Shown one piece after another: positions 1,700-25,252 of a stretch of 34,472 nt of DNA. How positions within the stretch are numbered: position 1 is the first letter of the stretch; every line of letters begins with the position of its first letter. Origin of the DNA: Catajapyx aquilonaris (Eukaryota). The notes beneath the pieces were generated by a model. That model was given only the letters and a program-made list of their open reading frames with translations, was not told where the DNA came from and searched no databases. The position numbers and the translations under genes are program-made. Location: positions 1-34,472 of the forward strand of contig JYFJ02004145.1 in assembly GCA_000934665.2 (NCBI GenBank), in the 5' to 3' direction.

Positions 1700-1886
1700 C
1701 TTGATCCGCCGCGTCAAGTATTGATCGAAAGAGAATAACATTTGGCCAGACACACGGTGGTGGATTGGGCCTCGTTTATCCGAGAGGTTTTTTTATGATT
1801 GGGCATCTAGAAATTCACAAATGATAGGAGGCCCCCAAGAGATAGTAGAAATAAACGAGGCCAAGTTCGGCAGGAGAAAATACCGC
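1700..1886 (+). mobile_element. Merlin (IS1016/IS1595-like) transposase fragment
   Basis: HTVVDWASFIREV...IGGPQEIVEINEAKFGRRKY matches the Merlin IGGxGxxVEIDExKFGxRKY block. The first catalytic D appears as N. Confidence 0.85.
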
Positions 1887-2033
1887 AGTCTTTGTGACTG
1901 CGCCGAAGATATCTGCACCGAGGTTTCCGAGTTCCGCTGTGCGGACTGTAAGAAATGCTTCTGCTTCCATCACTGTTTGTTGAAAAGGTGCATGATGCAG
2001 CGAACTGTGGGACCTATTAAGTTGGGTAACTGA
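1887..2033 (+). mobile_element. Cys/His-rich C-terminal tail of an unrelated transposase
   Basis: CAEDICTEVSEFRCADCKKCFCFHHC followed by a stop. Resembles CxxCxxxxCFxH tails of arthropod DDE transposases and is joined directly to the Merlin piece. Confidence 0.4.
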
Positions 2034-2179
2034 CAGTTTTTGTATAATAATAAATTACCAACTTTGTCCACATAAACTTATGTTTAAAACAGCTCACAGT
2101 CAAACAAAGTAGAGTGCTTGCTGTTAGGCTGCACGGAGAGGGCATTTGGGTTCACCTTTTCATATATGCGATTGCAAGT

Positions 2180-2790
2180 GTCAGGAGGCCAAAATGTACC
2201 AGGTAGTGGTTGATCCCCTTGAGAGATATTTCATTGTAAAGAAGCATGTACGAGTATTATCGTAGGATTCGAGCGGTTAAAGGTCAACCGTCGCGTCGGT
2301 TACGAGAGACAAATGAGGCAGTTGATGAGTTTGTCACGGCTTTGTATGGCCTATGTGAGCATTGTGATTATGGAACCCTAACTGATGAGATGATCAGAGA
2401 TCGAATCATTGTCAGCCTGAGAGACAAGGGATTATCGGAGAGGTTGACACTTGATGACTCATTGACAGTAGACAAAGCATCCATCAGGCCCGCCAGTCCG
2501 AGGCTGTCTAGAGGCTACATGCACCACTGATACGGGACCAACCCTTCCAGAGTGGGGGAATGCCTAGGACAGACCGGGTGCAGCAGGACCAGTGGCAGCC
2601 CGACAGTTGAAGAGGCGCAAAAAGACATATGGCAGCACGGGGGCCAAGATGGTGCAGAAAGCCGAGGCTGCAGAATGCAATTGGTGCGGGTATAAGGCGA
2701 TGCATCCCAAGAGGGACTGCCCGGCCAGAAATACAGACTGTCGTAAGTGTGCTAGGGACACTGTGAGGTGGCCGGGCCTGTCCAAAGAGA
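2180..2790 (+). mobile_element. Gypsy gag fragment (degenerate)
   Basis: EAVDEFVTALYGLCEHCDYGTLTDEMIRDRIIVSLRDKGLSERL, then knuckles CNWCGYKAMHPKRDCPARNTDCRKC. Contains frameshifts. Confidence 0.85.
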
Positions 2791-2795
2791 TACAG

Positions 2796-3060
2796 CCCAC
2801 ACAACACAAGGACGTACCTAGGACGTCCCAGAAGACACATTGGGATAAAGGGACGTCCAAGATCCGGATGTGGAGGTCCCTGGAAAGTCCCCGGGACGGG
2901 CCAAAGGACATCCCTCGTATCACATATGGACCAAATTGTGACATCCCGGGAACGTCCCGTGAACTTCCGCGGGATGACATGTGCCATGATTTGGTTACGT
3001 CACCTGGATGACATGGTGACCGGAATCGGACATCACACGCACGTCCCGTGCACCTCCGCT
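2796..3060. mobile_element. EnSpm/CMC-type terminus with subterminal repeats
   Basis: Starts CCCACACAACACAAGGACGT (CCC-type animal EnSpm TIR), followed by many GGACGTCC/GGACATCC-like repeats. Confidence 0.55.
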
Positions 3061-3247
3061 GGGGATGGGGAAGTGGCTTTTTCGCTTTTTATTATTCCCC
3101 AAAGCATTAACTTGCTAGTACTTTTTGGTTAGGCGGATGCCAATGCAGCAATTTGTTGCAAATCAAGAATTATTATCATTACAATAACAAAGATAAAACC
3201 TCCAACTTAACCTCCTGTTTCAATTATACTTCCAGACGAAGATAATC

Positions 3248-3750
3248 ATGGATCAGAGAGGACGTGGACGAGGTGGCCGAGGAAGAAGACCATACCAGGG
3301 CAATAAATTTGATCCCAACTTCAGAAAGGAAAGGCAAGCCCAAGGATTCTTCCAGCCCCAATACCGAAGTGCAGCCCGACAGGGAGAAGGTTCCAAGAGA
3401 ACCCCAAGCCTTCGAACGCCCACAGCTTCCAAAGCCGGAGGGGAAGCGGCAAAATCCCACACCAACAAAAGACGCATCAATTTGGTCAGAGGCAATTTTT
3501 GGCGAAGAGGTCACTGTTAAGGTTAACCCAAGAGCGCGAGTTAACTTGAACCTTCGTGAAACGGGAACGCAGGCAATCATGCTTCCGAATTTGGTTGAGT
3601 CTTTTCCTGCAGCTGGTAACCCATTAGCGGCTGGTGAGTTCAGGACGACTTCACTGAATCAAGACACAAAGACGGTCTTTGGTGTGGCCGCAACGTTAAC
3701 CTTTCAGATGTACAAAGAACCACGACCAGCAGGAGGAAACCCCGGAGGGC
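3248..3750 (+). pseudogene. Candidate endogenous viral element: partitivirus-like capsid, apparently internally deleted
   Basis: Arg/Gly-rich start MDQRGRGRGGRGRR, a frameshift, then SIWSEAIFGEEVTVKVNPR and GTQAIMLP...FGVAATLTFQMYKEP. These recall N- and C-terminal blocks of arthropod partiti-like coat proteins (from memory only). Confidence 0.4.
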
Positions 3751-3893
3751 ATGTCCGTCGTTGTCCCGGCCACGCAGGGAGAGATTGATCACCTCTACCG
3801 TGTGTGTACGGTGCAACTGATGATGTGGAATTCGAAATTTAGAGCCTTTCTTACATTTCCACTCCAATCTGACTTGTCACGTTTTAAATACAG

Positions 3894-4940
3894 AAGCGGA
3901 TTACCAGGAATTGGTCCAGAGTGAAGAGGGTCTCCGCCTACTGGAGGAGTCCGGGTGCCTAAGGCTAACAAACTTGGGCACTCGGGCCCTAATGATGCAA
4001 GACAGCATCGACTTTCAGGCATGTGCTAGGACCAGTACTGCCCTGAAGCAGTAAGTGGTTATGCACAAATAGTACAATATAAGTAAGTGCTGCGGGGAAT
4101 TTCAAATGGGGAGAAAATATATGGTGCAAGTCTTAAGCTCCGTTGGATTCAGCATGATTCTATACTGTCCTATCAGCTCCTATGGCAGAGCTATAATTTC
4201 ATTATGGGTCACCTTTCAGACTGGCACAGGGTTTGGAAACCCTAGGGTTGCTGGATATGATGAGAAGGAATTCTGTCACTCTCCAACCCCTTTTCTGCGG
4301 AAAAGGGGTGGCTATTACAGCAGACCGGCTGATGCGACTGTTTGAACCAGTGCGATCAGTACCAGGAAGTAATGCGTACCCCAGTGAAACGAACACTCTT
4401 GCACACTGGTACAAGTTTTTAGATACCGTGGAAGGTCAGTGTGCTAGTAGTAGTAGTAGTAGTAGTAAATAATAGTTAACATCAATTATTACGAGTACTT
4501 CAAAGTAAATGTAGTCGTTTTATTTTCTTCGAATTGTGCTGCTGGAGGAAAGAGATGTCTACATACAGTAGGGGAGGTGTGAAAGCTCTTATGACCTGTA
4601 TAAGTTTCTGTAACGATTCTCTAAATGTGGGGATGTGATTTAGTTTCAAACTGAATGTTTCTGCATTCCAGTGTCTCCCTCCAGTATTCAAGACGGAGAA
4701 GCTGTGACCCTAAGGGGAATTCTTGCCTTTGTGAGAGGAGCCGAGGAGGAGCCTCTCCTTGGCTACGACGATGAACCGAGAATTGTTTTCCAGCGCATGC
4801 TGGAGAATGACAGGCTCGGCATGCCCACGGTGTCGACATGCACCAACGTGCTGACTCTTCGCCACCACGACGTCTATGCAACATTTGAAAACTCATTCGT
4901 GAAGGCACAGAGAGAGTGCAAGGGGTTCTACGAAGTTTGA
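3894..4940 (+). pseudogene. G2E3-like HECT E3 ligase C-terminal fragment, three exons (3894-4050, 4220-4434, 4693-4940)
   Basis: Phase-compatible GT-AG introns join ...ALKQ/LAQGLETLGLLDMM...GSNAYPSE...W...E/DGEAVTLRGILAFVRGA...PTVSTCTNVLTL...GFYEV*. The catalytic Cys is in STC. The 5' part of the gene is missing. Confidence 0.8.
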
Positions 4941-4959
4941 GGAACTAGCAGTAAACCCG

Positions 4960-6662
4960 TGATTCGCGCGGTTCTAAACTTCTGCCAGTGAAGGTGACTG
5001 ACTTAGTGACAGTGGGTACATCACCAAAGGACCAAAGGGGTCGACATGGTAACGTAGCGCGAAGGAGTGGTCCTGATGTTGTAACTGCTATCAAGGAGCA
5101 TATCAAATCGTTTCCCGCCCGTCAGTCGCACTACTGTAGGCGCGACAATCCCGAGCGGCTGTACTTGCCTGAAAACCTATCAATAATGGAGATGTACAAG
5201 TTGTTTGCGGTTACACCTGTCGGCAAGAATGTGACTTACAAGATGGACTGGAATACATTCACATTCAACATTAAATTAGGACTCCCCCGATCAGATACTT
5301 GAACACAGTGCGACACATTCCACCATAAAATTGCATCTGCATCCCAACTTGAAGAGAAAATGGCATTGATCGGTCAACGAGACATGCACCATCGGAAGGC
5401 AGAGGCTTTCTACAACCTGAAAATAAAGTACAAAGCAAAATGTCGCGAGGACAGCGGGACGCTTGTAATCACATTTGACTTTATGCAAAACCTCCCACTG
5501 CCACACATCCCAAGTGGGCCTGTATTTTATAGTCATGAGCTGTGGTACAATGCCTTTGGCGTGCACAATCTATCGGATGACTCCGCCACAATGTATGTTT
5601 TCCATGAAGGCACTGCGAAAAAGGGACAGAACGATGTCACATCCTTGCTATTTGACTACATCAAGTCGCTGAATGTTCATGCGCAGGAGTTGGTCCTCAT
5701 CAGCGATGGATGTGGAGGGCAAAACAAGAACAATGTCACGGTTAGGTTCCTGTTCTTCATTGTCCATGTTTTCCGCATCGTTCCACGTGTCACGTACTTG
5801 TTCCCTATGAGAGGCCACAGCTACTTGCCCAACGATCAGGACTACGCATTGATTGAGAAGAAGAAGAGGACAACTCGAGCTGAAGTTCCTGAAGATTGGG
5901 ACAATGTTATTGTGGGAGCGATGAGCAAACCGTCACCGTTCCACCTCCACAAGGTTCGTCAGAGCGACATGCTTGCTGTGGGCGCTGCTGTAGCATCCTA
6001 CTAACTGAGGCAAAGCAAACCACCACTTCAGCTGAGAGAGTTGCGTATGCTGCGCATTTCCAGTGACGAGCCACAAGGAGTTTCAGTGAGAATGACATAC
6101 TCTGGCCCATGGCAGAAATGCATCATCCGAAACAGAAAGCCTCTTCCCAATGAGATCCACTTTGAGCCCCTTTACTCAGGACCTATCACGATTAACCCAC
6201 AGAAGCTTGAGAATCTCAACAAACTGAAGCAACTCTTGCAAAAGCCTGCTAATGCATCATTTTACGAGGCTTTCCAAGGTTGTGATGCACCTGGCGAGGA
6301 GGTGGATATCGATGAGGATAATAATAGCAGTGGCTGTGAAAACTGACATGTTATTCACAATAAAATAATGTGCTTGCTTATGCACTGACTCCGGATAAGA
6401 CTCTTTCATTTTCCCACAAAAATCACCCAAGTACAGGATTCATACAAAAACAGCCCATGTCACTTTTTAAAATAATTTATATATCAAAAAGTACAAACCC
6501 CATATGTGCAACTGTGATGTCATATCGCTCGTAACAACTGAGGCTATTCAATGAATTTAAGAATTTGTGTCTTTCTTCATGTGGTATTGTGCTAGATGAA
6601 TTTTTGTCTCTCCAGGAGAATTTTTCTCAAGTGACATGGGTTGTTTTTGTAATCAGCCCCTC
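4960..6662 (+). mobile_element. Sola1-type DNA transposon, 5'-truncated, right TIR retained
   Basis: HIKSFPARQSHY, FDFMQNLPLP, ISDGCGGQNKN and GHSYLPND motifs. Premature stops at 5300 and about 6002. Ends ...AATCAGCCCCTC then AATT. Subterminal inverted repeat at 6444-6463 / 6631-6650. Confidence 0.8.
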
Positions 6663-6949
6663 AATTTTTTTGCCGTAGGTGGGGAGCCTTGTCACGCCTA
6701 GCTTGCAGTTCGAGAGTTACCTGCACCCTGGGTCATGTTAGGAATGTATACTTCACAATGGCATGTACGCAAGATGCAGGGATTCCGTCGAGTCAGTAGT
6801 TTCGCAACTTTGACCCCTTTGGGTATACCGTTGGTGCCGGGCGACCGAGGGTATTTATTCGCGGTTCTTCTTAGAGTTCACCTCTTGGTAATTCAGTAGA
6901 GTTTCAGTCTCCTGTTCCGGGCTTCTCCTCACCCTTCAGGAAGGCGACA

Positions 6950-8269: not shown

Positions 8270-8870
8270 CGCCTCAAAATCTAAATCAACGACCGTAAAA
8301 GCAGGGAAACATTAGCTACTTTCACCTACACTTGTACCGCTTATTCTATATATTATTAAAGTTTATCATGTTATACTGTACTATTTATTCCACGAGATCT
8401 CAAATTTGACGGTGTGTTTGATACAGGCTCTTGGTCTGGGTTCAGTATAGCCTAAAAATCTAAATCAGTTTCCGCCAACATATTGTACGGTAAAATATTA
8501 TTTTCACGTATCCATACTTATAATGTAGATTATACAAATTATTAAATTCGAGGGTCTTTTTATGGTGCACCCTGTACGTCCTGGTTCAAACAAACCTATA
8601 AATCAAAATTAGGACGGCGAAAACATCGGGAAATGTTATTTTCACCTGCTTGTAATGTTTATTCTACACGTTCTGAAATTCCATTGTCAGTTTTGAGTAC
8701 ACCCTGCAGTTATAGGTTCAAAATAACCTCTAAATCGAAATCAGCGACCGTAAAAACAGGGAAATAATTTGTTTTCACCTACTTGTACCGTTTATTCTGC
8801 AGATTAAATTCTACCCTGGTTTCGTACACCCTGTAGGTCTTAGTTAGATAAGAGCCTCAAAATATGAAGC
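8270..8870. repeat. Degenerate tandem repeats of about 130-170 bp downstream of the Transib ORF
   Basis: AAATC...GACCGTAAAA.CAGGGAAA...TTTCACCTACTTGTACCG.TTATTCT recurs near 8277, 8600 and 8731, with a weaker copy near 8456. Confidence 0.6.
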
Positions 8871-9074
8871 AGTGACAGCAAAACGGTGCATTGGTCTGGA
8901 GAGTAAAGATGCCAAGCATTACGATATTTCAGAGAACATTTTGACGACAGGAAATCACCTGGCAAAAAAAGAATGCAAGACTGTACAGTTGGTGGTGAAA
9001 GTCAAGGTCGAAAACCTACCCGCAAAGGAGGGTGAGGGAACTCGTTACAGAGTAATGTTAATGCATAATGTCAA

Positions 9075-9292
9075 ACGCCGACAGGAACTGAGCGCCCCTC
9101 GGGGATGTGTACTGTGGGGCACAAGAGTGGTGATACCGGCAGCGTTCAAGGGGGAGCTGTTGGGGTGGCTCCACGTGGCCCACCCAGGGATGGTACGCAT
9201 GAAGGGTCTGGCACGCAGCTACCTCTGGTGGCCTGGCCTGGACGAGGACATTGAAAAGGCAGTGGGAGCCTGCGAGGCGTGCCAGGCATTCC
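9075..9292 (+). mobile_element. Gypsy integrase H2C2 zinc-binding fragment
   Basis: GCVLWGTRVVIP...LHVAHPGMVRMKGLARSYLWWPGLDEDIE...CEACQ. Confidence 0.9.
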
Positions 9293-9329
9293 ATCCGGAC
9301 CATATTCTTCATGCACAGTTAGAGTGTCG

Positions 9330-9510: not shown

Positions 9511-9551
9511 GAAGGATCATTAGATTTCAATTACGTACATGTTACTGTTGT

Positions 9552-9930
9552 GTGTGTGGCAGGTGGGAGGGAACTGAGTTGCGCCTTTTTTTATTGCTTA
9601 ATGTTGGACCTGTGGCCCTGAATGGAATCTTACCCGATCCTCCCTGTGGGCATTTCATACTATTCAGTGTGGCTTGTCGCATACTTCTGCAGCCCACTAT
9701 GCCCGAAGCCATGTGTATGTATGCTATTATGGTAACTTTTGTTGAAAATACTGCCACCCTTTACGGAAAGCGAGTAATGGTATACAACATCCACAACTTA
9801 ATTCACCTAGCAGATGTCGTCATGAAGTATGGCTCACTTGATAACCTCAGTGCATTTCCCTTTGAAATATTTTTGTATCAAATCATAATAATGTTAAGAG
9901 CCACGAGCCATCATCCCCTTGAAGAATTGA
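9552..9930 (+). mobile_element. EnSpm/CACTA transposase fragment
   Basis: RWEGTELRLFLL..GPVAL, LYG...VYNIHNLIHLADVV..YGSLDNLSAFPFE. Confidence 0.88.
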
Positions 9931-10489
9931 ATAACCAGAACTACACCAAATCATTCAATATGACAGCTAAATATGAAGGCATGTTTGCAAGCTTGCAAAA
10001 ACTGGTGATTGTGAGCAAATTTTGGTTAAAAGAAAACCTGCACACCTCATATTTCCCATCTTGTGGTTTTCACACACTTTGAAATGCAAGCCGTTGAAAG
10101 GGCATTTAAAGCGATCATTGCGATTTAAATCGGTCATTGCAGACATTGCTTGCAATATTATGCAACATTATTTATGCGGTTCCAAATGGGTAATGCCACC
10201 GTAACTGCTTGTTCTTGGTTGTATTCATGGAGGGTGTCCTACTTTATAGGAATTTGTTCAATTGGAAATAAATTGCAGTACAGCTTGCAGTTCTCCTTCT
10301 CACCTTTCTTCATTACTAAAAGGGGGAAAAAATAATGTATCTGAAAACAATCAGTCAGCTGCCAGTAGGTTTGTATGAAACCATGAAAATAATTAATTTT
10401 ATTATTATGCTTTCATTGCAGCATCTGGAGAGCATCCATCTGCCTCTACCAACACTGGCACAATAATAAAGCGACCCGAGACTGTCACA

Positions 10490-10900
10490 TTGTTCTGTCA
10501 TCTGAGCAGCAAGAATGCGCACGTGACTTGTCTTACTGATGGCAAGGTAATGCCCGACAAATGTCTCGAGTATTACGATGCAGAAGTCAAAAGAAGTGCC
10601 ATTGAGTGTGAAACCATATGCGAATTAACCAGGACGCAGGATAACACCTCATGGAAGGAGGAGAGACGAAAGAGCATAACCGGTTCCATATGTTATGGAC
10701 TATTCACCTACGGGACCCGACAACCAGTCTGGAAAAAAAAAAAAATGAAGATAACCTTGCACCACCTGTTTCTCGGGAACCGCAGCACACGCCATGGGAA
10801 GATGTGGGAGCCAGTGGCTTGGGAAGCATATGCAATGGAAAAACAATGTGACGCAAAGATGTTTAGGTTGGTAATTTCTCCGCAGGCTCCTTGGCTTTTA
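10490..10900 (+). mobile_element. YqaJ/lambda-exonuclease-like domain fragment (TE-borne)
   Basis: TRTQDNTSWKEERRKSITGS...GNRSTRHGKMWEPVA...LVISPQAPWL. Truncated before the SPDG motif. Confidence 0.75.
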
Positions 10901-11004
10901 AGAGAGAATCAAGATACCAGATGGAAGCAGGGACTTCACTCATGTGAGGATCAATTGTAAGCGCAAGTGCACCACTGCTATGTAAGCGATGCGGCGCAAC
11001 TGTT

Positions 11005-11637
11005 GTAATTGCGGGTTGGCTACCCTTCAGAGAGTGAAAAATCTTTTTAAAGTCGCTGTAGCTACGAAAATAAGGTCTCTACGTGGAAAAGGTACTTCAG
11101 ACTTTTTGTAGAGTACATGTTTCTGTACAACGTTTGTTTGGAACATATCCGCCTGAGAGGCATAGTACGCTCAGAAAAGACTTTTTACTCGCTTCAAGGT
11201 AGCCAACCCGCAATTACGGGCCACCTGGGCGAAAACGGCTGTGGCGCCATATCTGGATTGGAGGAATATGGTCTCAGGGACATTCTTACCAAATTTCACC
11301 AATGCACGGTTTACTTTTTTTTCGGCCCTTAATTTGGTTCAAGTCGCTGTAGCTCCGAAAATACTGACAGTACGCGGAAAGGTTACAATATACTTTTTGT
11401 AGGATACATGTTTCCCCACATCATTTGTTCGGAACATTTCCTCCTGAGAAGCACAGTTCGCTCAGAAAAAGACTCTTCCCTCACTTCAGGGTAGCCAACC
11501 CGCCTCCTGCGCGAAAACGGGCGTGGCGCCATATCTGAATTTGAAGAGTATGCTCTCAGGGACATTTGTACCAAATTTCATGCTTTTTTCACCAAATGCA
11601 CGGTTGACACATTATTCGTCCCTTAACGTCCGGACTA
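11005..11637. mobile_element. Non-autonomous DNA element end (possibly Academ-like) built from internal direct and inverted repeats
   Basis: Diverged direct repeat of about 290 bp (11050-11340 vs 11341-11630). Inverted repeat 11005-11047 / 11175-11217. Terminus ...GTCCGGACTA (TAGT on the reverse strand). Confidence 0.5.
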
Positions 11638-12449
11638 TGATCCAAGGCCATGATCCAGGCCCGTACAGTGTCACCCAGCTGGATTGTACTACTTGTCAGT
11701 AGAAAGATTTTTGGCACTAAGCTTATTCTTATTTCTAAGCAGTTGTACCTATGGAGTTGTTATATTTTAGTGGCTAGCTAATACATTAGGTACTGCACTA
11801 ATGTTATGCCTGATTAAATCAACCTTTCTTGGTTCTAAAGCACAATGAACTGTTACCCTTCGGTTCCTAACCTATAGATGCAATTAATTTTGGGGGCGAG
11901 AAAACATATCTAACAGGGATTTCACTCTAATTGTATTCCTCCAGTTGAGTACTGTGTAATGAGAGCTTAACATTGTAATGTAAGGAAATGTAATGTTGGT
12001 TGTTATTCTATTGGCCACTTGTTTGTGTAACTTAGATACTTGTTACCATGTATTCCAGTTGTTGTTTACCTGNCGTGGGGAAACAGGGAGAGGGAGAGGA
12101 TTTCTCTACTGCAACACACACTTTCTGGCGCTTTCTGGCCTGGCCTTCAATCTGGCCCCGACATTGAAACAGACTTTCAAAAGCAAGGAGAGGTGGGAGT
12201 CATTAGTCCCCCTTCGAAACGAAGGAAATACAAATGACTAGGCGTGGCCATTGGCCAGCAGATTACGCCGGACCGGGTGGGAGAAGGAGGCGAGTTTTTA
12301 TCTGGTTTTAGTCCTGTTCCCCACCTTACATCCCCCTTCCCTGAGCCTGGTCCTCATTTTAACCCAATGACCCAATCTTCACAGGCTGGTCCTCAATGTG
12401 ATCCGATACCCCAATTCCCGCAGGCTGGCCCTGCTTTTATTCCCCTTTC

Positions 12450-13100
12450 CCCGCGTCTGGCGCGATGGATAAAAACTTACTCCGTTTTACATCCGGCTCA
12501 AAAGGGGTTTATGCCCACGGATGGCGTAGCAGAGCACAATTTGTCCTGGAGCAACGTCTGGGAGAGGCCAGGAGAAACCGGGCCGACCTGTGTATAGGTG
12601 GGCTCGATTTCTCAGCCGCATATACCTCCGTACCCCATGGTGCCCTCCGAGCTTCCCTGGAAGCTGCCGGAGTGGGGGAGATGTTTGTGGACGTCGTGGA
12701 GGACTTCTGTGGCGGGGGAACGACGCAGATCGTGACGGTGGACGGTCTCACCCTGCCCATCCCAGTCAAAAACGGAATCCGTCAGGGGGATCCGCTGTCA
12801 TGTCTTCTTTTTAATGTGGCGATCGACCAGGTGTTGTGGAGGGTCTGCCCAATGACCACTGCCAAGCACCAGGTATTGTACGCGGATGACGTCACCCTCC
12901 TTGCTGACGATCCGAAGGAGCTCCAGAATGGCTTGGAGGTGGTGGAGAGACAGGCAGCCAGGATTTCCATCTTGGTGAATCCCAAGACAACCACCAACCA
13001 AGTCACCATGCATTTTTCAAGAAGGACCCCGGTGGGAACCAGGCCCACTGCCTTTTTTCTCGGAGGGCGCACTTGGATGGAGAAAAAACCATGTTCCTAG
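12450..13100 (+). mobile_element. Utopia/NeSL (R2-group) non-LTR reverse transcriptase fragment
   Basis: LHPAQKGFMPTDGVAEHN, a frameshift, then LDFSAAYTSVPH, GIRQGDPLSCLLFN and YADD. Confidence 0.85.
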
Positions 13101-13149
13101 GCAGGCCGGTGGGGTTCCAGGGCCTGACGGACTACTGTAGTCCCAACAA

Positions 13150-14327
13150 GTTCATTCAGACAGGCGAGAGTATACAGTGATGCTGCGAAAAAGTTTACAT
13201 TCTTAACAAAATTAGATGATACAGAAGAAGAGATTTGTGCAGAAGTTAATGCTTTAAGCCAAACATATCCTGAAGATGTGGACATGAACCTGGTTGGAGA
13301 ACTGAAGCATTTTCATCACTATGTTAGACATAGTCAAAGCCATGAACATGATAATCTGACACAAACATCTGTACCAAGTAATATTTAATGACCATGTCCA
13401 GTCTACATTCCCTAATGTAGAAGCAATTATTAGAATGTTCCTTTGTATGATGATTACAAATTGCCAAGGAGAAAGATCCTTTTCTCAGCTGAAGAGGATA
13501 AAAAATGAATTGAGAACAACGTCTCAAGATAAATTATGTTACCTCAGCCTCATGTGCACAGAAAGTGACAAGCTACGCAGTTTATCATTTGATGATATCA
13601 TCAGTGACTTTGCTTTGGCAAGAAGGCAAGTATTCTAACAATTACTCACTAACAAGTGTAACTAACAGGAGTAACAGGGTACAATGGTTTACTGTCCCAA
13701 TGAATAGTGTGGACTACTATGGCGATATTGATATGATATAAAAATGCGTTGTATTAACTACAATTGCATGGTATAGGTTATAAAATTTAATTTCATATTA
13801 ATAAAGTTATGTCTAATTATTAGTAGTTTGCATCATACATTTGTACCTATTATTACTTCATGTTATTATAGATTATATTTAGCAGATGTGTAGAGACTAG
13901 ACTAGATTATGAGTCTTTATTAATTGTGTTACTAAAGGAACTTTTGTTTTTGCCAAATGAAAATGTGTTTGCATTATTAACTTTGATATGAATAAAAAAA
14001 TCATGCTCAGCGCGGAGGAAAAGAGCAGATGGGAGCCACAAGCTATGCATACATTCGACACCCAAACTCTTGCAAAAGCTCTTGTTAGTATACTTCTTAA
14101 TTGTATTTCAGTTCAACAATGTCTTTGATAAAATACATCTTTTGTTATGTGCAAATGGCTTTAGATACCTATTAGGTACAGAAATTACCATATAGCATGT
14201 ATTCAACACAAAAAAACAGCGATAGTTTGTTGTTGAAAAAATTGACAGCTGGACATACTGTATAAAGGACGAAGGGCCCCATTACCTTCAGTAGCTTAGG
14301 GCCTCATCAAACCTAAATCCGGCCCTG
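13150..14327 (+). mobile_element. hAT transposon 3' part (ZMYM1-like dimerization domain, 3' UTR, right TIR)
   Basis: FPNVEAIIRMFLCMMITNCQGERSFSQLKRIKNELR with stop at 13638. Ends CTAAATCCGGCCCTG (CAGGGCCGGATTTAG TIR). Confidence 0.88.
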
Positions 14328-15447
14328 AATTGTGTGGAAGACTATCTGCAAGGGTAGTCCTGGCATGAATGTGAAGAAGTTTGCTCCGCGAAGGATAGGC
14401 AAAGGAGAGGCTTGCAGGAAGCGCCTTCTCTTTGGGGAAGGAAGCAAGAAGAAGCGGGTATGGGAGCGATCAATGCCACTGGGTGACAAACATTACGGCC
14501 CCCATGCTCCTCCCACGCCTGATCTCCCGATTGCAGAATTCGAGAAAGAGTGTGACAAGATCATGGGGGACTTAAAGGTGTCCGATGAGGAAAGGGCACA
14601 AATCGAGCGAGATACAAAAGACCAGAGTCTCAGCGATCTCTGGACGGAGAGGCGTCAGGGTCGCCTGACTGCTTCGTAAGAGTCTGCTAAATGAATGCTT
14701 GGACTTCATGTCATGCTACAGTGAAGGTCTTACTCTACCAAGTTGGATTGGACTCGGCCCCTAATCTATACGGTAGAGTACAGGAGGCTGTAGCTGTTAG
14801 CATGTACGAGAATTCCAACAGTGTCAAGGTCGAGTGCGCTGGTCTTTTTATCCACCCGACTCATTGTTTCCTTGCCGCTTCGCCTGATGGCTTGATTGGC
14901 GATGACGGTTTGCTGGAAGTGAAGTGTCCCTTCACCATCAGGAACATGGATCCGATTTGAGGGCATTGATTCTGTGATAGTTTTACTTTTGACTTACAAT
15001 GTACATGCTGGAATTATTTACTTATTGTATCATACGTTTTTGTGCCATACTATCCATCTTACCTATATCCTTACCCACAATACTGTTCGTCACCTTATAT
15101 AAACCTGTACAGTACAACCCGTTCACCGAGGCCTTCGGTCTCTTCTAGTTGTTGAGGCCACTGGTCATCCCCTTTGTCCAACCTTTTCCATCCCCCCCTC
15201 ACATATTGTTTTGTTTCGTTTCCCACGGTTGGTTTGAAATACATCGAGGACATTCATTGAATCCACTTGTCATCTTTTGAACCTTTTTACCTATTTCCCT
15301 CTCACTCTATTTAGGCCGATTCGGTCACAATTCTATCCCAAAGAGTAGAGCTTCCTGCACAGTCGACGGTCAAGGCAACCTGCACCTGAAGCGCTCTCAT
15401 AATTATTACTACAAAGTTCAAGGGCAGTTGCACATCACGGGAAGTGT
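14328..15447 (+). mobile_element. Second YqaJ-domain TE gene fragment, split by an insertion
   Basis: TKDQSLSDLWTERRQGRLTAS and GLFIHPTHCFLAASPDGLIGDDGLLEVKCP. Resumes at about 15350 as LHLKRSHNYYYKVQGQLHITG. Confidence 0.85.
14975..15340 (+). mobile_element. Insertion in the YqaJ gene containing a Helitron-like 3' end
   Basis: Hairpin GAGGCC-TTC-GGTCTC (15128-15142) followed by CTAG (15145-15148) and T. Confidence 0.4.
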
Positions 15448-15449
15448 GA

Positions 15450-15864
15450 GGCGCCAGGACGGGAGGTTGGAGCACTATGACCTCTCTAAATAACATAGGT
15501 GCACATGGTATGAAACTGAATATTCAGATGAGAACGAAATGGATTTTGATAAATGTAACGTATTAGAACATGGATACTTCCCTATTGGAAATGATATTTG
15601 TACTGTACCCAAACAGTGCATCAAAAAGTGGACAATAATCGTATTATTGTAGCTCCGTCTGAATTACAAAAAGTGTCGCAGTTTCTCCTTCAGCAATAAG
15701 GGTAAGGGTCATTCAGACAGTGACCAGTTTTTTTCTGAATGAACCTAATACTTGCTTGCTAGGTATTCCTAGCATAAATTATGAGTTAAGATTAGGGTTC
15801 AGGTTCCGCGAAAGAATTATGAAGTAAATATGGTTCCGCGGCCCAAATAGTTTGAGAACCGCTG
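15450..15864. mobile_element. hAT (Charlie-type) terminus
   Basis: Subterminal GGTTCCGCG twice. Ends GTTTGAGAACCGCTG, followed by GTCTATAG, which resembles the Charlie target site. Confidence 0.65.
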
Positions 15865-16249
15865 GTCTATAGTATCACAGAAACAGTGTTGACGTGTGTT
15901 TCTGTTTGGGAAATATTTGCAATAAAATGGGATATCTCTAAGGAAATATTATGAATTTCAGCAACTTTTCTGGACGTAACACTGCCTCATCCTTGAATCT
16001 ACCAATTTTCACTAACTATTCTAGGCAGTCTGCAAGTGGGTCTGATGGCTATGACATGCATACACACTTTCTGTTTTATATTAGCATATAAGGGGTGGTG
16101 ACAACCATCCAAGCATCCATCTTAATTATGAACACTGATTAACTATGTAGACTAATTGATACAGTTCCTATTAGTAATTCAGAAAAAAACAATAACTAAT
16201 GCACATAATAATGACGTTATGTCCATCTCAACAATTAATCCAACGTAGA

Positions 16250-18577
16250 TTATTCGATCCAAACCTCCATAAGGAGCTTCAAGACATCAACTTCAGCAAA
16301 CTCCTTCCAGGATTGACTCTGCCTCACCTCCTTAGAATGTGACAGGATGAACTGTATGCATGGATCCTTGAGTGTCGGCAAGTCTAACAAGACTGCATGA
16401 GTCAGAATGTTTAGTACAATTATTTACTAATTTGATTGTTGCATGAAATTTCATATCCTTTATTGAGTGTATAGTATATTCATTTCGAGGCGAGGCTTAA
16501 TTATATTTTGACACATTTGAGGCGTTCAGAGCACACTCGGTCTAAGTTCACTTTTTAAAAATTCCCTGTTTTCGCGCCGAGCATCTTGCAAAGGGGAAGT
16601 AAAAATAAGTGGAACATATTGAATTACTATTACTCCCGCCCCATATAAGCGCAATGCGCATGAAAAGGTGTACCCAAAAATCAATTGAATTATTATTAAC
16701 TCTTTATGCTAATGAATGAAGTGATTTAATGTGCAAATAGCAATAATATATTATTATTATTCTAGCTGGCTTCATAAATGCCAATTTATTATGTCTTTTT
16801 CTTTTGGTCAAGGACTCAATGATACGGCGCGACATACCTACATTCAACTTTTTCATTTTCAGAAACTTTCGCGGCGGAAAAGCGCCCTCCTGAAGGCGTC
16901 GGCAGAGGCCGGCCGCAGAAAAAAAATCTTGGAGGTGCTGACTAAGGAATATATGAGCAGCGAGGAGAGCGCCGCTGACGAGGATGCGGATGAAGGATCA
17001 ACCAGGACATTTGTTGTCAAACAACTGCCCCGGAGGAGCAGAAAAGTAAAAAGAATTTTCCGCAAGTTGGATGACATGCACCAACTGACCACCACAAAGA
17101 GGGGTGGAGACCTCATGGTCAAGCGTTCCTATGAGTCGGAGGTCATTTCTGAGAGGCGGCCTCCGACTGACGCCCCTCAATGGGCAGTCTGCTCCACAGC
17201 GGGATATACTCGTGGCCATGCTGAACACGAGGAGGAGGAGGAGGAGGAGGATTACATAAATTAAGGTAGTCACAAACCCCTTATGGGAATTAAATACCGT
17301 AAATGAAAGAGTAGATAATAATTGCTCATGTATTAGCTGCAAGCATTCGACATGGACAACACAAGCGAACCCACTTGATCATTTAATTGACTTTTTATTT
17401 CTTTGACTTTTTTCTTCAATTCAAAGGAGGATGTGATCTGTCTGTCCAGGCGTTCCAAGGCCGGACAGACAGCTGTGCATAGTCAAGCAAAGAAACCGTG
17501 CATATGTATCTACGCGCCGTGGGAATGTACCTTCACGCCAAGGGTGTAGAGAGAGTATATGCAGGACAAAGTATATCGTTATTCTCTTCACTCCGCGGTG
17601 AATAGGCAAGGGAAGATCGCCTATGCTCAGAGTGAAGGTGAAAGCCAGTGTGGCTATCCAAGCCTGAGCAATAGCGTGCGGTCACATATTTCGTAAGGGT
17701 GTAGGTGAGCTAAAGGCATCCATTTCTTCTAGTGATGTCAACAGTCAAAATTCTGCTGACACGCTTCACCATTAGATGCAGAAGACGCGGGATCTGATAC
17801 TTGTGAGCAGCAAGCAACAGATCCATGGCCAGCTCCGCCGTCACATCTTCAGGGGCTTCATCACTGTACATGAAGCTAATGAGGCCTCTCAGGACATCTG
17901 GTTTGAAGTCCTGAATGATCACCCTTCCAGTCTTCTTTTCCTCAGTATCGTGGTCAAACATGGCTGCAAACACAGGGCTCCGGGCACACAGAATGAACTT
18001 GTGCACTGGAAGTTCTGTTCCGTCGCTTACCACCAGAATTACATCCCTGCCAACCTGGGACTCCAGCATGGACTTTGAGACCTCGAGCAATCCACAGCCA
18101 AGAACTTCATGTGTATTTTTACAGTTTGCATCCAACAGTACTTCTCCATTGCAAATCAACGTTAGAGTTACCTTTGGAAAAAGGTCAGATGATCTTTCTT
18201 TTAAGACTTTGTTTTCAATGAACGTATAGGACACACCCAACAGCAACTTTTCCCATAAAATGGGTTGATATTTCCAGCAGGAACCCCAGTGTAGTCCGTT
18301 TTGTTGACACTCTTAATGGTGAGTGAAAATGTGGTAAGGAATTGGAGATGTGTGTCAGAAACGCAGTCAAACTAAATAGAGACGTGACTCCGATTAGCAA
18401 CTGGCATCTCGCCTTGGGGATCCATTTTGCTGACTTCAATCCACTGACGGTGAACGGGTCAGAAGCATATGATATTTTATCCGTTTCAGAATAGGGAGTG
18501 TACTAGTTGTCAATGGTCCATTTGAAGCTAAATGGCTTCGCATCTGCTGTAGTGAGGTATTTCTGTCTGGTAGTCAT
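16250..18577 (-). pseudogene. MATH-BTB/POZ (SPOP/roadkill-like) pseudogene interrupted by an EnSpm fragment
   Basis: ATG at 18577 after a pyrimidine-rich acceptor. FKWTIDN* (stop at 18503-18505). BTB DVILVVSDGTELPVHKFILCARSPVFAAMF. The C-terminus IVLNILTHAVLLDLPTLKDPCIQFI...WKEF resumes at 16420 with stop at 16250-16252. Confidence 0.88.
16421..17734 (+). mobile_element. EnSpm/CACTA fragment: accessory-ORF last exon plus right TIR
   Basis: EYMSSEES...LPRRSRKVKRIFRKLD (C14orf93-like motif). Ends GGCATCCATTTCTTCTAGTG (CACTAG on the reverse strand). AT flanks both sides. Confidence 0.7.
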
Positions 18578-19132: not shown

Positions 19133-19239
19133 GTAAGCAGTTCTAGGCCTAGCCTGTGCCTCTTCCAATCCCTTATTGTTACTGCTCGTATAATAGTCAG
19201 TTGTCAGTGTAACTACTGCATTTGGTAAAACCAGGAACG

Positions 19240-19548
19240 AAAATCACACGTAAATCTCTCCTCCTACGCGTGTCAATTGCACACGCTAGGACGCACATAG
19301 TGGCGGCAAGACAGGATGGAATCCACCTTTCAAGGCCGACAACTTTTCAAGTGGGAGATCTGGTACCCAAACGTGCTCGGACCCTGTCCAACCACGCGGA
19401 AGGTGTCTCCGCGTCGATGGCTCATCCATAGGAAGGTCCTTACCGCATCAGGGAGTGACCGTCTCCAAATACTTTCCTCCTAAATCTAGAGGATATGGAA
19501 GGGAAGTCCGATGGGATCCTGTGGGCAGCAAATGACCTCGAACCTTAA
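19240..19548 (+). mobile_element. Gypsy integrase C-terminal (GPY/F) fragment
   Basis: FQVGDLVPKRARTLS...MAHP*EGPYRI...SPNTFLL...NDLEP*. Confidence 0.8.
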
Positions 19549-19798
19549 GTGCAGGAGATAGCTCATGAAATGGGCATCTCAGTGGACCAGGTACATCACA
19601 TTCTCACTGAAGAGTTGGGCATGAGGAAGCTGTCGGCGAGTGGTGCCGCGCCTGCTGACACCGGAGCAAAAACGCGTTCGCGCGGTCAATTCAAATGAAT
19701 GTTTGGCGCTTCTCCAGAGGAATCCTCAAGAGTTTCTGCGTCGTTATATCACCATGGATGTAACATGGGTCCACCATTACACGTCTGAGACAAAGGAA
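19549..19798 (+). mobile_element. mariner transposase internal fragment
   Basis: EIAHEMGISVDQVHHILTEELGMRKLSA, (W)VPRLLTPEQK and YITMDVTWVHHY. Confidence 0.9.
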
Positions 19799-19890
19799 AT
19801 TCTTGGGTGGTTCGGGCCCAAGTACATATACATTCAAACACAGTGGCAACGAAATCGGGCCACATTCAAACATAACTAATTTTGTCATAG

Positions 19891-20212
19891 GATCGAAGGG
19901 CGCGGCCCTCAATACTACAAGCTGGAAATCAAGCTGCTGAAGGGCATTGTGGCCCCAGATACCACTAAAATTCTGTTAGCAGATACAATTCGCTTCAGCT
20001 TCCGAAAGGCAACATTTGGTAGGCCAAGTATATAAACGTGCTGATGTTCAGGGCCGCTTTCTTGACAAGTACTTACGAGTTACAACGTATTTTCCCCTTT
20101 TATTCCTACAGGCAAGCGGTGGACATCTCTAATGATTGTTGGGGAACTAAAACGCAACCCGAAGGCTGTCAAATTTAACATACCCGAGACAGACCTGGAG
20201 GGCCAAGACTAA
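19891..20212 (+). pseudogene. Two-exon fragment (19891-20018, 20112-20212) resembling a CS/p23-like domain
   Basis: Phase-compatible GT-AG intron. YYKLEIKLLKGIVAPDTTKILLADTIRFSFRKATF/GKRWTSLMIVGELKRNPKAVKFN fits the CS-domain pattern. Confidence 0.4.
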
Positions 20213-20769
20213 ACGGAATGGAGAGGTAGGAAATTGATTTACTATTATAAACACATACGTAACTTACACCATTTTTTGTTCAAGGAACCGGGGGTATTGG
20301 TGCGAACATTGCAGGGACCATTTTTACGAACTAATTAACTATAGAAGGCACGTCACGTCGATGCAATGACGTCGGTAAAGAGATACAAAAATGTCGTCTA
20401 TCTCATCATCCTCCCTTCCATTAAGTCCTCTGCTGTACCTAACCACTCACCAGAGGATTCAGTATTGGTTTATGACACTGTTTGTTGTGTGTCCCTGGTC
20501 ATCGCTGGCTACCCTATTAGGCCTACAGGATTATGCCATGAGGTTATGAATGAATGAATTTTGTGGGTCACATTCATCCTTTGCACACTTTCTTCGCACT
20601 GAAGTAGGTTAGTTAGAGTTGAGGTTGCAGCTCACCTGGCCTTTGTATAGAGTGGCAAAAAATAGCAGCTGAAAAAGGTAGTTCTTATTTTCTGCTACTC
20701 TTGTATTTTAAACAATTTTTTGTGGGATTTTGTCTGCATATGAATTTGCATCCTGGCGCAACATGCATC

Positions 20770-22010
20770 TAGTTTGTCTTGCCTTGATAATGAGGTATTT
20801 ACATGTGAGGTTTGTGGAAAGAGTTACAACAAAAATGACAGCCTCCGGCAGCATAGGTTGCGATGTCGGGGAAAGACTGGACAGCCACACCCTGACAAAG
20901 GCGAGGTCAAGGGCGCATACACATGCGACATCTGTGGCAAAAATTTTCAATACAAGTAGGGTCTCCATCGACATAGGAAGATTCGTAATCTGAATCAGCT
21001 AGTGGGAAATGAACTACTTCTCCACAGGAACTAACTGCTCTTGATAGTATTGCGACATGTGTGAAAAGATGAAAGTGTTTCGCTTGGTAGTGTTTGACAG
21101 TATTGCACGGGAACGTTTTTAGACATTGACAGTCACATTCAGACTGACCGCAAGGACCTGGTAATTGATGCAAATGAGCGTCATATACGATGTCAAGAGA
21201 AACACTGTACCGGTACTTTTGTGACTTTGAAAGACCTCATGCACCACTGGAGCCATTCTCACGACTTTTAAAATCACTGCATGCTAGAGAAAAGCTTGAC
21301 TGATGACGCAGATTTTGAGACTTGGAAGACAGACCTGGAACAAAAGACCTCTACACGTTTTGTGCAAATTACTGGCCCTGTTAGGTACACTGACTATAAG
21401 GTTAAACGTAAGTATTGCATCATGTCAGGAAATTGCAGGGCCCAGGTAGGAAATGACTTTCACAAGAGCAGAAAGATTGAGAGGCATTGCAGAGCACACA
21501 TGGTAATGAAGGTGATGAACTCTTCTGGTGAATATCAGTCATATCACAAGGAGCATTATGGGCATGAGCTGAATCTTGCTTTGCTACCACTAAGCGGCAA
21601 TGACAAGGAACCAATCGCTCACCAGTTGAAGGCCAAGTAATGACACTCTCTTGCATTATGCACGGAAACTCAATAGTGGTGCTGGCGTCTTGCGTAGAAT
21701 GCGCTTACTAACCAAGAATGATATCAAAAACATCGGTAAGTCATATGGGATTGCAAGGCATGGCAATCGCCATGATGACGATGCCACCAGTCTTTTCATG
21801 CGGATGAAGGAAATGGAAGACAAGGGTGATAAGAAGCCAGTGCTCCTTGCAAGTGAACAACAGGGTGCTAATAGCATTGACTCGGCTGATGGCGATTTCA
21901 TTCTTGTAATCCAAACTGAATTCCAACGTCGCGTGATGGAAAAGTTTGCACCAAATAAGGTGGCGTTCCTTGACGGAGTACATGGGACCAACAGCTATGA
22001 TTTTCAGTCC
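20770..22010 (+). mobile_element. MULE/Mutator transposase fragment with N-terminal C2H2 fingers
   Basis: CEVCGKSY...H, CDICGKNF, SRKIERHCRAHM...EHYGHE, RHDDDATSL, DFILVIQTEFQ and LDGVHGTNSYDF. Several stops and frameshifts. Confidence 0.85.
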
Positions 22011-25250: not shown

Positions 25251-25252
25251 TA

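What the first reader, a model, noticed from the sequence alone, without database searches (positions are those of the whole stretch)
1700..22010. Internal coding snippets butted together without termini or TSDs
Seen: Merlin to Cys-tail at 1886/1887, Gypsy integrase to EnSpm over 9075-9930, Utopia RT to hAT at about 13100-13150, hAT TIR to YqaJ at 14327/14328, and Gypsy to mariner at 19548/19549. Most pieces are 200-700 bp and lack the ends needed for transposition. The flanking element usually does not resume after them. Inference: either templated capture during DNA repair (spacer-like acquisition), or nested insertion followed by heavy deletion that keeps a sample of each family. Recognition bias toward conserved domains may inflate the pattern.
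Basis: partly seen in the sequence, partly recalled or inferred. Interest (0 to 1): 0.7.

Follow-up and report, generated by a model that had tools for sequence, protein, structure and literature searches.

The report
One-way mosaic of transposon fragments
This stretch of an arthropod genome is a patchwork of short, cut-down pieces of many unrelated jumping genes that all point the same way, most simply built by ordinary insertion followed by deletion, and laid out like the loci that animals use to make transposon-silencing small RNAs.

Summary
The mosaic is real. Tools verified short internal coding pieces of unrelated transposon (TE) families lying next to each other. They are a Merlin/IS1595-like piece, Gypsy gag and integrase pieces, an EnSpm-like piece, an R2-like RT, a hAT C-terminus, a MULE-YqaJ piece and a mariner piece.

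The "Gypsy" left of 19548 and the "Cys-tail" identity were not verified. The Gypsy-to-EnSpm junction holds about 240 unassigned bases. An assembly gap (N at 12073) lies just upstream of the RT piece.

"No termini or TSDs" is too strong. The hAT piece ends in its own terminal repeat at 14327. A 357-bp solo LTR with a 4-bp duplication (TSD) sits inside the MULE-YqaJ gene, which resumes behind it. A MITE and a nearly intact pogo also keep their ends.

So ordinary nested insertion plus deletion is directly shown at some sites and is the simplest reading of the rest. Repair-templated capture has no support, but it is not excluded.

All 13 tool-verified TE coding pieces in the 34.5-kb window lie on the + strand and none on the – strand. 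The pieces also carry few stops, and several have no other copy at 80% likeness or more in the reads. This is the layout of a one-strand piRNA source locus, untested for lack of RNA data. An earlier scan note reports a similar one-way array elsewhere in this genome.

The parts
652..1141 (+). Gypsy-type gag zinc knuckle plus protease piece (outside the finding, same array)
   Evidence: Pol profile positions 181-344 of 1320, in two frames. tblastn gave 30 matches at E<=1e-3.
1688..1889 (+). Merlin/IS1595-like transposase piece of about 67 codons, with one stop and one frameshift. It ends at the break 1886/7.
   Evidence: tblastn to P0211. P0211 was the single hit at E 4.4e-4, matching query residues 23-55. 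The family name rests on a recalled motif; P0211 has no Pfam family.
1886..2763 (+). Repeat unit that starts at the break. It holds a Cys-rich ORF (1887-2030, identity unknown) and a Gypsy-type gag (2294-2759).
   Evidence: An 879-nt read contig of depth 94 covers exactly 1886-2763 (table 8). Gag matches profile positions 95-236. The Tc5_C match is weak.
4644..4940 (+). C-terminal end of a HECT ubiquitin-ligase domain (a host-gene fragment)
   Evidence: Pfam HECT, profile positions 232-303 of 306, E 1.1e-6. No PDB sequence match.
4955..6346 (+). DUF7869 protein gene (probable transposase, by inference), 464 codons with 2 internal stops
   Evidence: Pfam DUF7869. It is 33-34% identical to a second copy at 26283-27911. 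Single read contigs span 4958-6695 or 4958-6719 in 4 of 4 runs.
6443..6651 (.). Small inverted-repeat element (MITE-like) with TA on both flanks
   Evidence: 30-nt arms, 87% complementary (pair I15). Flanks read.
8351..8801 (.). Diverged tandem repeat of about 140 bp, many copies in the reads. It abuts the Gypsy piece.
   Evidence: Self-matches at 69-72%. Summed depth 810-1454, loose ends at 8714 and 8749, and 'goes back' joints.
9058..9294 (+). Gypsy-type integrase zinc-binding domain only (pairwise matches reach 8779-9315)
   Evidence: Integrase_H2C2, E 1.5e-11. Profile positions 921-999 of 1320, E 3.5e-36. 62% identity to P0001 residues 935-1018.
9558..9974 (+). EnSpm-like (weak DUF4218-type) internal piece, 138 codons with no stop
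   Evidence: 41-46% identity to residues 370-512 of P0208 and P0209, with no other part present. These relatives carry only a weak DUF4218 match. Read contigs 9465-10235 bridge both ends in 4 of 4 runs.
10550..10918 (+). Second, older YqaJ nuclease piece
   Evidence: Pfam YqaJ, profile positions 2-91 of 150. tblastn gave 16 matches.
11005..11620 (.). High-copy short repeat with inverted and direct copies
   Evidence: families D1-D3, pairs I6 and I10. Summed depth 5100-12000.
12073..12073 (.). Assembly gap (single N)
   Evidence: Read contigs run on for 136 and about 245 letters unlike the window on either side (tables 7 and 8).
12402..13100 (+). R2-like non-LTR reverse transcriptase piece (RT domain only, one frameshift upstream)
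   Evidence: RVT_1, E 6.9e-17, profile positions 54-189 of 205. Best solved relative is R2, 8gh6 residues 506-661.
13128..14327 (+). 3' part of a hAT element: C-terminal about 170 codons, the natural stop at 13636-13638, the 3' non-coding part and the terminal repeat ending ...CCGGCCCTG
   Evidence: Dimer_Tnp_hAT. Sequence read. No 5' repeat is present in the window.
14329..15442 (+). 5'-cut gene of a Mutator-like-transposase-YqaJ fusion family, interrupted by the solo LTR
   Evidence: Window 14332-14655, 14706-14954 and 15323-15442 match P0088 residues 314-419, 421-503 and 506-544. Family domains are PF20700 plus PF09588.
14973..15329 (.). Solo LTR, 357 bp, TGTGA...TCACA, flanked by ATTC on both sides
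   Evidence: Sequence read. Unique in the window. Read contigs join 14957 to 15330 in 4 of 4 runs (table 5).
16253..18312 (-). SPOP-like BTB (17713-18312) and BACK (16253-16423) gene pieces, with about 1.4 kb between them that paralogous contigs lack
   Evidence: BTB, E 5.6e-24. SPOP residues 136-288. BACK match is weak. Joints 16083-16418 to 17738-17847.
19549..19797 (+). Mariner transposase N-terminal piece (second half of the DNA-binding region up to just before the catalytic domain), one frameshift
   Evidence: Atlas first hit 0.95 with 184 shared features, clusters carrying PF01359. Frames read. No Pfam or PDB match.
21272..22013 (+). MULE-like N-terminal piece ending at the first catalytic-Asp motif (identified by eye only)
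   Evidence: Translation, motif recalled. No Pfam match.
22654..25255 (+). Nearly intact pogo/Tc5 element with both terminal repeats (just outside the finding)
   Evidence: 36-nt arms, 92% complementary (pair I9). DDE_1, HTH_Tnp_Tc5 and HTH_psq in a 518-aa ORF. The C-terminal zinc finger lies in another frame.

Best explanation
The region is a transposon nest made by ordinary events. Elements of at least nine superfamilies transposed into the locus and into one another. They were then cut down by deletion, by LTR-LTR recombination and by further insertions. What remains are short internal remnants that now lie side by side.

What is shown: classical insertions with ends and target duplications occur inside the region, and one interrupted element resumes behind its insert. 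What is inferred: the internal-to-internal junctions (1886/7, about 9294-9315, 9558, 9974, about 13000-13150, 19548/9, 19797) are deletion scars.

On top of this, every verified TE coding remnant in the 34.5-kb window points the same way, and the remnants carry few stops. I read this as orientation-dependent retention with fast turnover. That would make the locus probably a one-strand (flamenco-type) piRNA source transcribed from the – strand, so that its RNA is antisense to the transposons. This last step is inference only, and I put it at about 40% on its own.
For: 1. Insertion with ends and TSD. A 357-bp solo LTR (TGTGA...TCACA) with ATTC on both sides sits at 14973-15329. The MULE-YqaJ reading frame continues across it, P0088 residue 503 to 506. 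Contigs in 4 of 4 runs join 14957 to 15330.

2. The hAT piece ends in its own terminal repeat at 14327, directly against residue 314 of the MULE-YqaJ protein.

3. A MITE with TA flanks and a pogo with both terminal repeats lie in the same array.

4. The truncation is real and is not a recognition artefact. The Pol profile finds only positions 921-999 near 9.1 kb and no RT, RNase H or integrase core anywhere. The Mutator domain of the MULE-YqaJ family is absent. Residues 1-369 and 513-end of the EnSpm-like proteins are absent.

5. Strand. 13 tool-verified TE coding pieces lie on + and 0 on –, and both strands were scanned alike. The scans were Pfam on 135 ORFs of 72 aa or more, Pfam on 150 + ORFs and 150 – ORFs of 42-71 aa, and tblastn or a profile with 87, 120 and 3 relatives. 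The two-sided binomial is 2.4e-4.

6. Age. The aligned stretches of ten truncated pieces, about 1,400 codons, hold only a handful of in-frame stops. On a uniform-substitution estimate of my own, that means a few per cent of neutral change.

7. Flamenco-like loci are defined in print by dense TE fragments inserted predominantly in one orientation (PMC10643416, passages read).
Against: - For the six or seven internal-to-internal junctions there is no terminus and no TSD, and the cut element does not resume. Deletion there is inferred and was not seen.
- Flamenco-like clusters are enriched in Gypsy LTR elements. Here only 3 of 13 pieces are Gypsy-type, and most are DNA transposons.
- A HECT gene fragment also lies on +. 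A – strand precursor would therefore give small RNAs antisense to a host gene.
- Several pieces (DUF7869, RT, hAT coding part, MULE-YqaJ) have only one contig's worth of depth at 80% likeness or more. Their source families seem absent from the genome, which needs either loss of all other copies or another route of entry. The tool warns that depth is not a copy number.
- Two family labels are weak: Merlin-like rests on one hit, and the transposon nature of DUF7869 is inferred.
- Only one window was examined, so how common same-strand runs are in this genome is unknown.
Confidence: 0.55

Rival explanations
1. Plain decaying transposon-rich DNA with no function. The same insertion-and-deletion history applies, but the common orientation is chance, or it comes from lying inside a long – strand host transcription unit (an intron) in which sense-oriented elements are selected against.
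For: The same structural evidence as for the best explanation. A – strand host-type gene piece (SPOP-like BTB and BACK) lies in the middle of the array. Purine excess on + is confined to the assigned coding pieces (54.2%) and is absent from the unassigned DNA (50.6%), so nothing marks the whole stretch as one unit.
Against: 13 to 0 is unlikely by chance (2.4e-4). Intron orientation bias, as I recall it, is moderate and mainly concerns LTR and LINE elements, whereas most pieces here are DNA-transposon fragments. No other – strand exon-like Pfam match was found in the window.
Confidence: 0.27
2. Spacer-like capture. Short internal pieces of transposon DNA or cDNA were copied or ligated into double-strand breaks during repair (filler DNA or templated insertion), so they never had ends or TSDs at this site.
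For: Several junctions join internal points of unrelated elements with nothing recognisable between them: 1886/7, 19548/9, 9558 and 9974. The pieces are short and carry few stops. A short TG-rich run sits at the 9558 junction. Capture of foreign DNA at breaks is known (NUMT filler DNA, PMC2567098, abstract seen in the listing).
Against: No donor copies were available, so no microhomology or filler could be scored. For several pieces no other copy at 80% likeness or more was seen in the reads. Random capture predicts both orientations, against the 13:0 seen. Where the history can be read (solo LTR with TSD, hAT terminal repeat, MITE, pogo), it is classical transposition.
Confidence: 0.07
3. The array was assembled by a capturing mobile element (Helitron- or Pack-MULE-type fragment capture), or by template switching of a reverse transcriptase across several transposon mRNAs. 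Either route can give same-orientation chimeras.
For: All pieces share one orientation. Host-gene fragments (HECT, a C2H2 finger) lie among the TE pieces. An R2-like RT piece is present. That Helitron-captured fragments are mostly co-oriented, and that R2 RT jumps between templates, are both recalled and not checked here.
Against: No Rep/helicase domain was found in any ORF scanned. Long parts of the array have single-contig depth, so the array is not a multicopy element. End-to-end template jumping would join 3' ends to 5' ends, not internal points. The hAT piece keeps a DNA-level terminal repeat. Bounding termini were not searched for.
Confidence: 0.03
4. Some junctions are assembly chimeras of a short-read draft, not real DNA.
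For: An N gap lies at 12073, where read contigs run on unlike the window. Contigs over 12074-13060 differ from the window by 14-17 letters and 11-20 gaps. At 1944 no contig carries the window's base (table 3). The 1886 junction lies at a contig end.
Against: Contigs from 4 of 4 runs (one sample) bridge both ends of the EnSpm-like piece (9465-10235) and span 4958-6695. The hAT terminal repeat against the MULE-YqaJ frame, and the LTR with matching TSDs, are biologically coherent joins. Table 8 was cut (5101 rows not shown), so the other junctions were simply not visible.
Confidence: 0.05

Closest known systems
flamenco and flamenco-like one-strand piRNA clusters of Drosophila (PMC10643416, passages read)
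   Same: Dense, truncated transposon fragments from many families, nearly all in one orientation. The fragments look recent, and turnover appears fast.
   Different: Flamenco-like loci are enriched in Gypsy elements and measure 227-1085 kb. Here DNA-transposon pieces dominate, only 34.5 kb was seen, and no small-RNA or promoter evidence exists.
Nested transposon clusters with solo LTRs in repeat-rich or heterochromatic DNA (general knowledge, recalled)
   Same: Elements are inserted into elements, with TSDs at preserved ends, a solo LTR, and a host element that resumes behind an insert.
   Different: Ordinary nests show both orientations and usually old, decayed copies. Here the orientation is uniform and the reading frames are little decayed.
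Filler DNA or templated insertions at repaired double-strand breaks, for example NUMT capture (PMC2567098, abstract only)
   Same: Internal pieces of foreign sequence lie without ends or TSDs.
   Different: No donors, microhomology or filler could be shown. The orientation is not random, and some pieces carry true transposon ends.
Helitron or Pack-MULE arrays of captured gene fragments (recalled, not checked)
   Same: Co-oriented fragments of unrelated genes abut one another.
   Different: No capturing element, no bounding termini and no multicopy array were found.

Membership tests
One-strand (flamenco-like) piRNA cluster | Dense transposon fragments | tested here: met
   At least 13 verified TE coding pieces plus a solo LTR, a MITE and repeats in 34.5 kb.
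One-strand (flamenco-like) piRNA cluster | Strong strand bias of the fragments | tested here: met
   13 on +, 0 on –, with both strands scanned alike. Binomial 2.4e-4.
One-strand (flamenco-like) piRNA cluster | Enrichment of Gypsy-type LTR elements | tested here: not met
   3 of 13 pieces are Gypsy-type. There is no genome-wide baseline, so 'enrichment' itself could not be computed.
One-strand (flamenco-like) piRNA cluster | Size above about 35 kb, up to hundreds of kb | tested here: inconclusive
   The bias runs through the whole 34.5-kb window and neither end was reached. No genome is held.
One-strand (flamenco-like) piRNA cluster | 24-32-nt small RNAs from one strand, antisense to the transposons, and a promoter at one end | not testable with these tools
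   No RNA run was listed for the organism. The run search and the read-laying caps are both used.
Nested insertion followed by deletion | Preserved element ends with target-site duplications at some junctions | tested here: met
   Solo LTR with ATTC on both sides, MITE with TA flanks, hAT 3' repeat at 14327, pogo repeats.
Nested insertion followed by deletion | The interrupted element resumes behind the insert | tested here: met
   Met for MULE-YqaJ across the solo LTR. Not met for the Gypsy, EnSpm-like, Merlin-like, mariner, RT and hAT pieces.
Filler DNA or templated capture at break repair | A donor sequence elsewhere, with junction microhomology or filler | tested here: inconclusive
   No genome is held. 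At 80% likeness or more, several pieces show no other copy in the read contigs, so no donor could be compared.
Filler DNA or templated capture at break repair | No orientation preference expected | tested here: not met
   13:0 orientation (calls as above).
Helitron or Pack-type fragment capture | Rep/helicase gene or bounding element termini, and a multicopy array | tested here: not met
   No Helitron-type domain in the 435 ORFs scanned. Long parts have single-contig depth. Termini were not searched for.

The most novel reading that the evidence does not exclude
The locus is an orientation-selected archive that keeps short, still almost open-reading samples of transposon families with no other recognisable copy left in the genome. 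At least some samples entered as ready-made internal snippets through break repair rather than by transposition. That would be an animal counterpart of spacer acquisition feeding a one-strand small-RNA source.
Probability: 0.05. Interest if true: 0.85.

Novelty: new member of a known kind. Interest (0 to 1): 0.3.

Why it matters
If small RNAs confirm it, this would be a flamenco-type one-strand cluster in a non-insect-model arthropod that is built mainly of DNA-transposon pieces rather than Gypsy elements. That would bear on how general the 'trap' model of transposon immunity is.

The combination of young, truncated, single-copy pieces also gives a concrete place to ask how clusters gain and trim their content. 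As it stands, the structure itself is an ordinary product of insertion and deletion.

Tried and rejected
- The whole genome is not held, so I could make no genome-wide fragment-size or orientation baseline and no donor search.
- No RNA holder was listed among the runs.
I used stop-free ORFs instead. Searches left out 19 of 169 + ORFs and 27 of 177 – ORFs, the shortest ones.
- 'Gypsy' left of 19548: no match with 87 Pol proteins at E up to 5 on the + strand, none with the Pol profile, and none in Pfam at E up to 10.
- Mariner piece: no Pfam family above noise and no PDB sequence match. Only the Atlas supports it.
- 'Cys-tail': no relative in the representative search, and no likeness to the pogo C-terminal zinc finger in the same window.
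- HECT piece: no PDB match.
- Rfam and tRNA scans found nothing.
- No 5' hAT terminal repeat is present in the window.
- Earlier-scan look-ups by place and by sequence found no look-alike stretch.
- RT template-jumping origin is rejected. It should join RNA ends, whereas the joins here are between internal points, and the hAT piece keeps a DNA terminal repeat.
- Reading the pieces as spliced exons of one gene is rejected. Frames differ from piece to piece, and the one insert checked (14973-15329) has no canonical splice sites.

Full report
**What the window is**

The window is 34,472 bases, 45% G+C, with CpG observed/expected 0.66 and one N at 12073. No genome is held for it. Earlier notes of this scan call the genome an arthropod. 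Four DNA runs of one sample hold 64-71% of the sampled words of 8800-15000, and no RNA run was listed.

**How I mapped coding remnants**

I scanned both strands alike.

- Pfam on all 135 stop-to-stop ORFs of 72 aa or more gave families at E<=0.01 in 12 ORFs.
  - Nine are transposon-type, and all nine lie on +: Tc5_C (weak), DUF7869, Integrase_H2C2, YqaJ twice, RVT_1, Dimer_Tnp_hAT, the pogo set DDE_1/HTH_Tnp_Tc5/HTH_psq, and a weak hAT-like RNase-H match.
  - Three are host-type: HECT and a weak PHD on +, and BTB on –.
- Pfam on 150 of the 169 + strand ORFs of 42-71 aa added only a C2H2 finger and noise-level matches.
- Pfam on 150 of the 177 – strand ORFs of 43-71 aa added only a weak BACK match and two noise-level matches.

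I then fetched full-length relatives and laid them on the window with tblastn and a profile. There were 87 Gypsy-type Pols, 120 listed YqaJ proteins of 127 found, 3 EnSpm-like proteins and the single relative of the Merlin-like ORF.

**Junction (a), 1886/7**

The ORF 1725-2030 matched one protein among 1.84 billion representatives (P0211, E 4.4e-4), and only over its residues 23-55. By tblastn, P0211 residues 58-124 align to 1688-1889 with one stop and one frameshift.

P0211 has no Pfam family. The name Merlin/IS1595 rests on my recall of the zinc-ribbon and 'VEIDE.KFG.RKY' layout.

To the right, the Cys-rich stretch has only a sub-threshold Tc5_C match. In all four runs a contig of raised depth starts at 1885/1886, and one 879-nt contig covers exactly 1886-2763. 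This unit also holds a Gypsy-type gag (profile positions 95-236).

A contig end can reflect a repeat border or a mere variant among copies. So this agrees with a repeat edge at the break but does not prove one.

**Junction (b), Gypsy to EnSpm-like**

All 87 Pol relatives cover only 25-52% of the ORF 8848-9618.

A profile of the 43 Pols of 1200 aa or more matches 9058-9294 (positions 921-999 of 1320, E 3.5e-36). The other matches in the window are the gag and protease pieces near 0.65-1.14 kb and 2.3-2.76 kb. RT, RNase H and the integrase core are absent from all six frames.

Some pairwise alignments stretch the piece to 8779-9315. Its left side meets a diverged tandem repeat of about 140 bp.

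Bases 9316-9557 match nothing.

The stretch 9558-9974 is 41-46% identical to residues 370-512 of 641-662-aa proteins that carry only a weak DUF4218 match. The rest of those proteins is absent even at E up to 50.

Contigs 9465-10235 bridge both ends of this piece in 4 of 4 runs.

**Junction (c), RT to hAT**

The RT piece (RVT_1 positions 54-189 of 205) is closest to R2 among solved proteins (8gh6 residues 506-661, E 2.8e-14).

The assembly gap at 12073 lies 330 bases upstream of the ORF. Read contigs there carry 136 and about 245 letters that the window lacks. The 5' extent of this piece is therefore unknown.

The hAT piece is the last 170 or so codons of the transposase, with its natural stop. 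The join lies somewhere in 12992-13150.

**Junction (d), 14327/8**

The hAT non-coding tail ends ...CCTAAATCCGGCCCTG at 14327. This is a hAT-type terminal repeat; the CAGGG start is recalled. No partner repeat exists in the window.

From 14332 on, the DNA encodes residues 314-419, 421-503 and 506-544 of P0088. P0088 belongs to a family that fuses a Mutator-like transposase domain (PF20700) to a YqaJ nuclease. The Mutator part is missing here.

Between residues 503 and 506 lies a 357-bp insert, 14973-15329. It starts TGTGA, ends TCACA and has ATTC on both sides, which marks it as a solo LTR with a 4-bp target duplication. Contigs in 4 of 4 runs join 14957 to 15330 without it.

So at this spot the history is readable. 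An LTR element transposed in, collapsed to a solo LTR, and the host element resumes behind it.

**Junction (e), 19548/9**

From 19549 to 19797 the two frames read as the end of a mariner DNA-binding region and the linker before the catalytic domain. The Atlas puts the second frame at 0.95 next to clusters carrying PF01359. Pfam and PDB searches give nothing.

The left side reads to my eye like the C-terminal end of a retrotransposon integrase, but no tool supports that. One search was wasted on a wrong frame.

**Other contents**

- A DUF7869 gene (4955-6346, two internal stops) has a 33-34% identical second copy at 26283-27911.
- A HECT C-terminal fragment lies at 4644-4940.
- A MITE with TA flanks lies at 6443-6651.
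- A very high-copy short repeat lies at 11005-11620.
- A SPOP-like BTB and BACK gene piece lies on the – strand. Its two parts are separated by about 1.4 kb that paralogous contigs skip.
- A nearly intact pogo with both terminal repeats lies at 22654-25255.

All 13 tool-verified transposon coding pieces lie on + and none on –. They are gag-protease, Merlin-like, gag, DUF7869 twice, Gypsy integrase, EnSpm-like, YqaJ, RT, hAT, MULE-YqaJ, mariner and pogo. The two-sided binomial is 2.4e-4. Three more by-eye pieces also lie on +.

The caveats are that the Merlin-like label rests on one weak hit and that the transposon nature of DUF7869 is inferred.

Purine excess on + is 54.2% in the assigned pieces and 50.6% in the unassigned DNA. 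The unassigned two thirds of the region therefore give no further orientation signal.

**Age and copy number**

The aligned stretches of the ten truncated pieces total about 1,400 codons and hold only a handful of in-frame stops, plus roughly eight frame changes. By a uniform-substitution estimate of my own, that is a few per cent of neutral change.

Yet at 80% likeness or more, the bins 5035-6368, 12372-13705 and 14373-15706 carry only about one contig's worth of word depth (19-35 in run X1). Repeats reach 800-5000. The tool warns that this depth is not a copy number, so I treat 'no other copies' as a hint.

Young, truncated and apparently unique pieces call for fast local turnover and loss of the source families elsewhere.

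**Reading**

Ordinary transposition followed by deletion is shown at several sites and is the most economical account of the internal joins. The uniform orientation needs selection or a directional process.

The known system with this layout is the one-strand piRNA cluster, defined in Drosophila by dense fragments in one orientation, Gypsy enrichment, large size and one-strand small RNAs (PMC10643416, passages read). Here the first two structural features are met, Gypsy enrichment is not, and RNA evidence is unavailable.

I did not test that locus.

**Verdict**

This is a new instance of a known kind of locus, of modest interest until small-RNA data are laid on it.

Noticed in passing
window 12073 and 12074-13060: A single-N assembly gap. 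Read contigs carry 136 and about 245 letters on its two sides that the window lacks. Contigs over 12074-13060 differ from the window by 14-17 letters and 11-20 gaps.
   Followed up: partly
window 16253-18312, - strand: SPOP-like BTB (matches SPOP residues 136-288) and a weak BACK piece, from a family with many copies in the reads. Paralogous contigs skip about 1.4-1.65 kb between the two parts. This fits the expanded MATH-BTB family noted earlier in this genome (e1-7506695).
   Followed up: partly
window 4955-6346 and 26283-27911, + strand: Two diverged (33-34% identical), nearly full-length genes for DUF7869 proteins. The second also gives a weak hAT-like RNase-H match. They are possibly an undescribed DDE transposon family. 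No terminal repeats were seen.
   Followed up: no
window 22654-25255: A pogo/Tc5 element with 36-nt terminal repeats, TA next to both repeats, and a 518-aa open frame. Its C-terminal zinc finger lies in another frame.
   Followed up: partly
window 30158-32036: A large, segmented inverted repeat (arms 29-86 nt, 77-93% complementary, nested around about 30550-31350), like a foldback element.
   Followed up: no
window 4644-4940, + strand: An isolated last 72 residues of a HECT ubiquitin-ligase domain, ending at a stop, with no other HECT part in the window.
   Followed up: no
window 1886 and 22013: Both the Merlin-like and the MULE-like pieces stop a few codons after what looks like the first catalytic aspartate motif. 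This is by eye only and may be coincidence.
   Followed up: no
window 1944: Every read contig over this base carries C where the window has G (4 of 4 runs, table 3). This is a likely assembly or strain difference.
   Followed up: no
window 7684-8100 and 16725-17264, + strand: Open frames of 138 and 179 aa with no Pfam match. The second is acidic and lies inside the insert that splits the BTB and BACK pieces.
   Followed up: no
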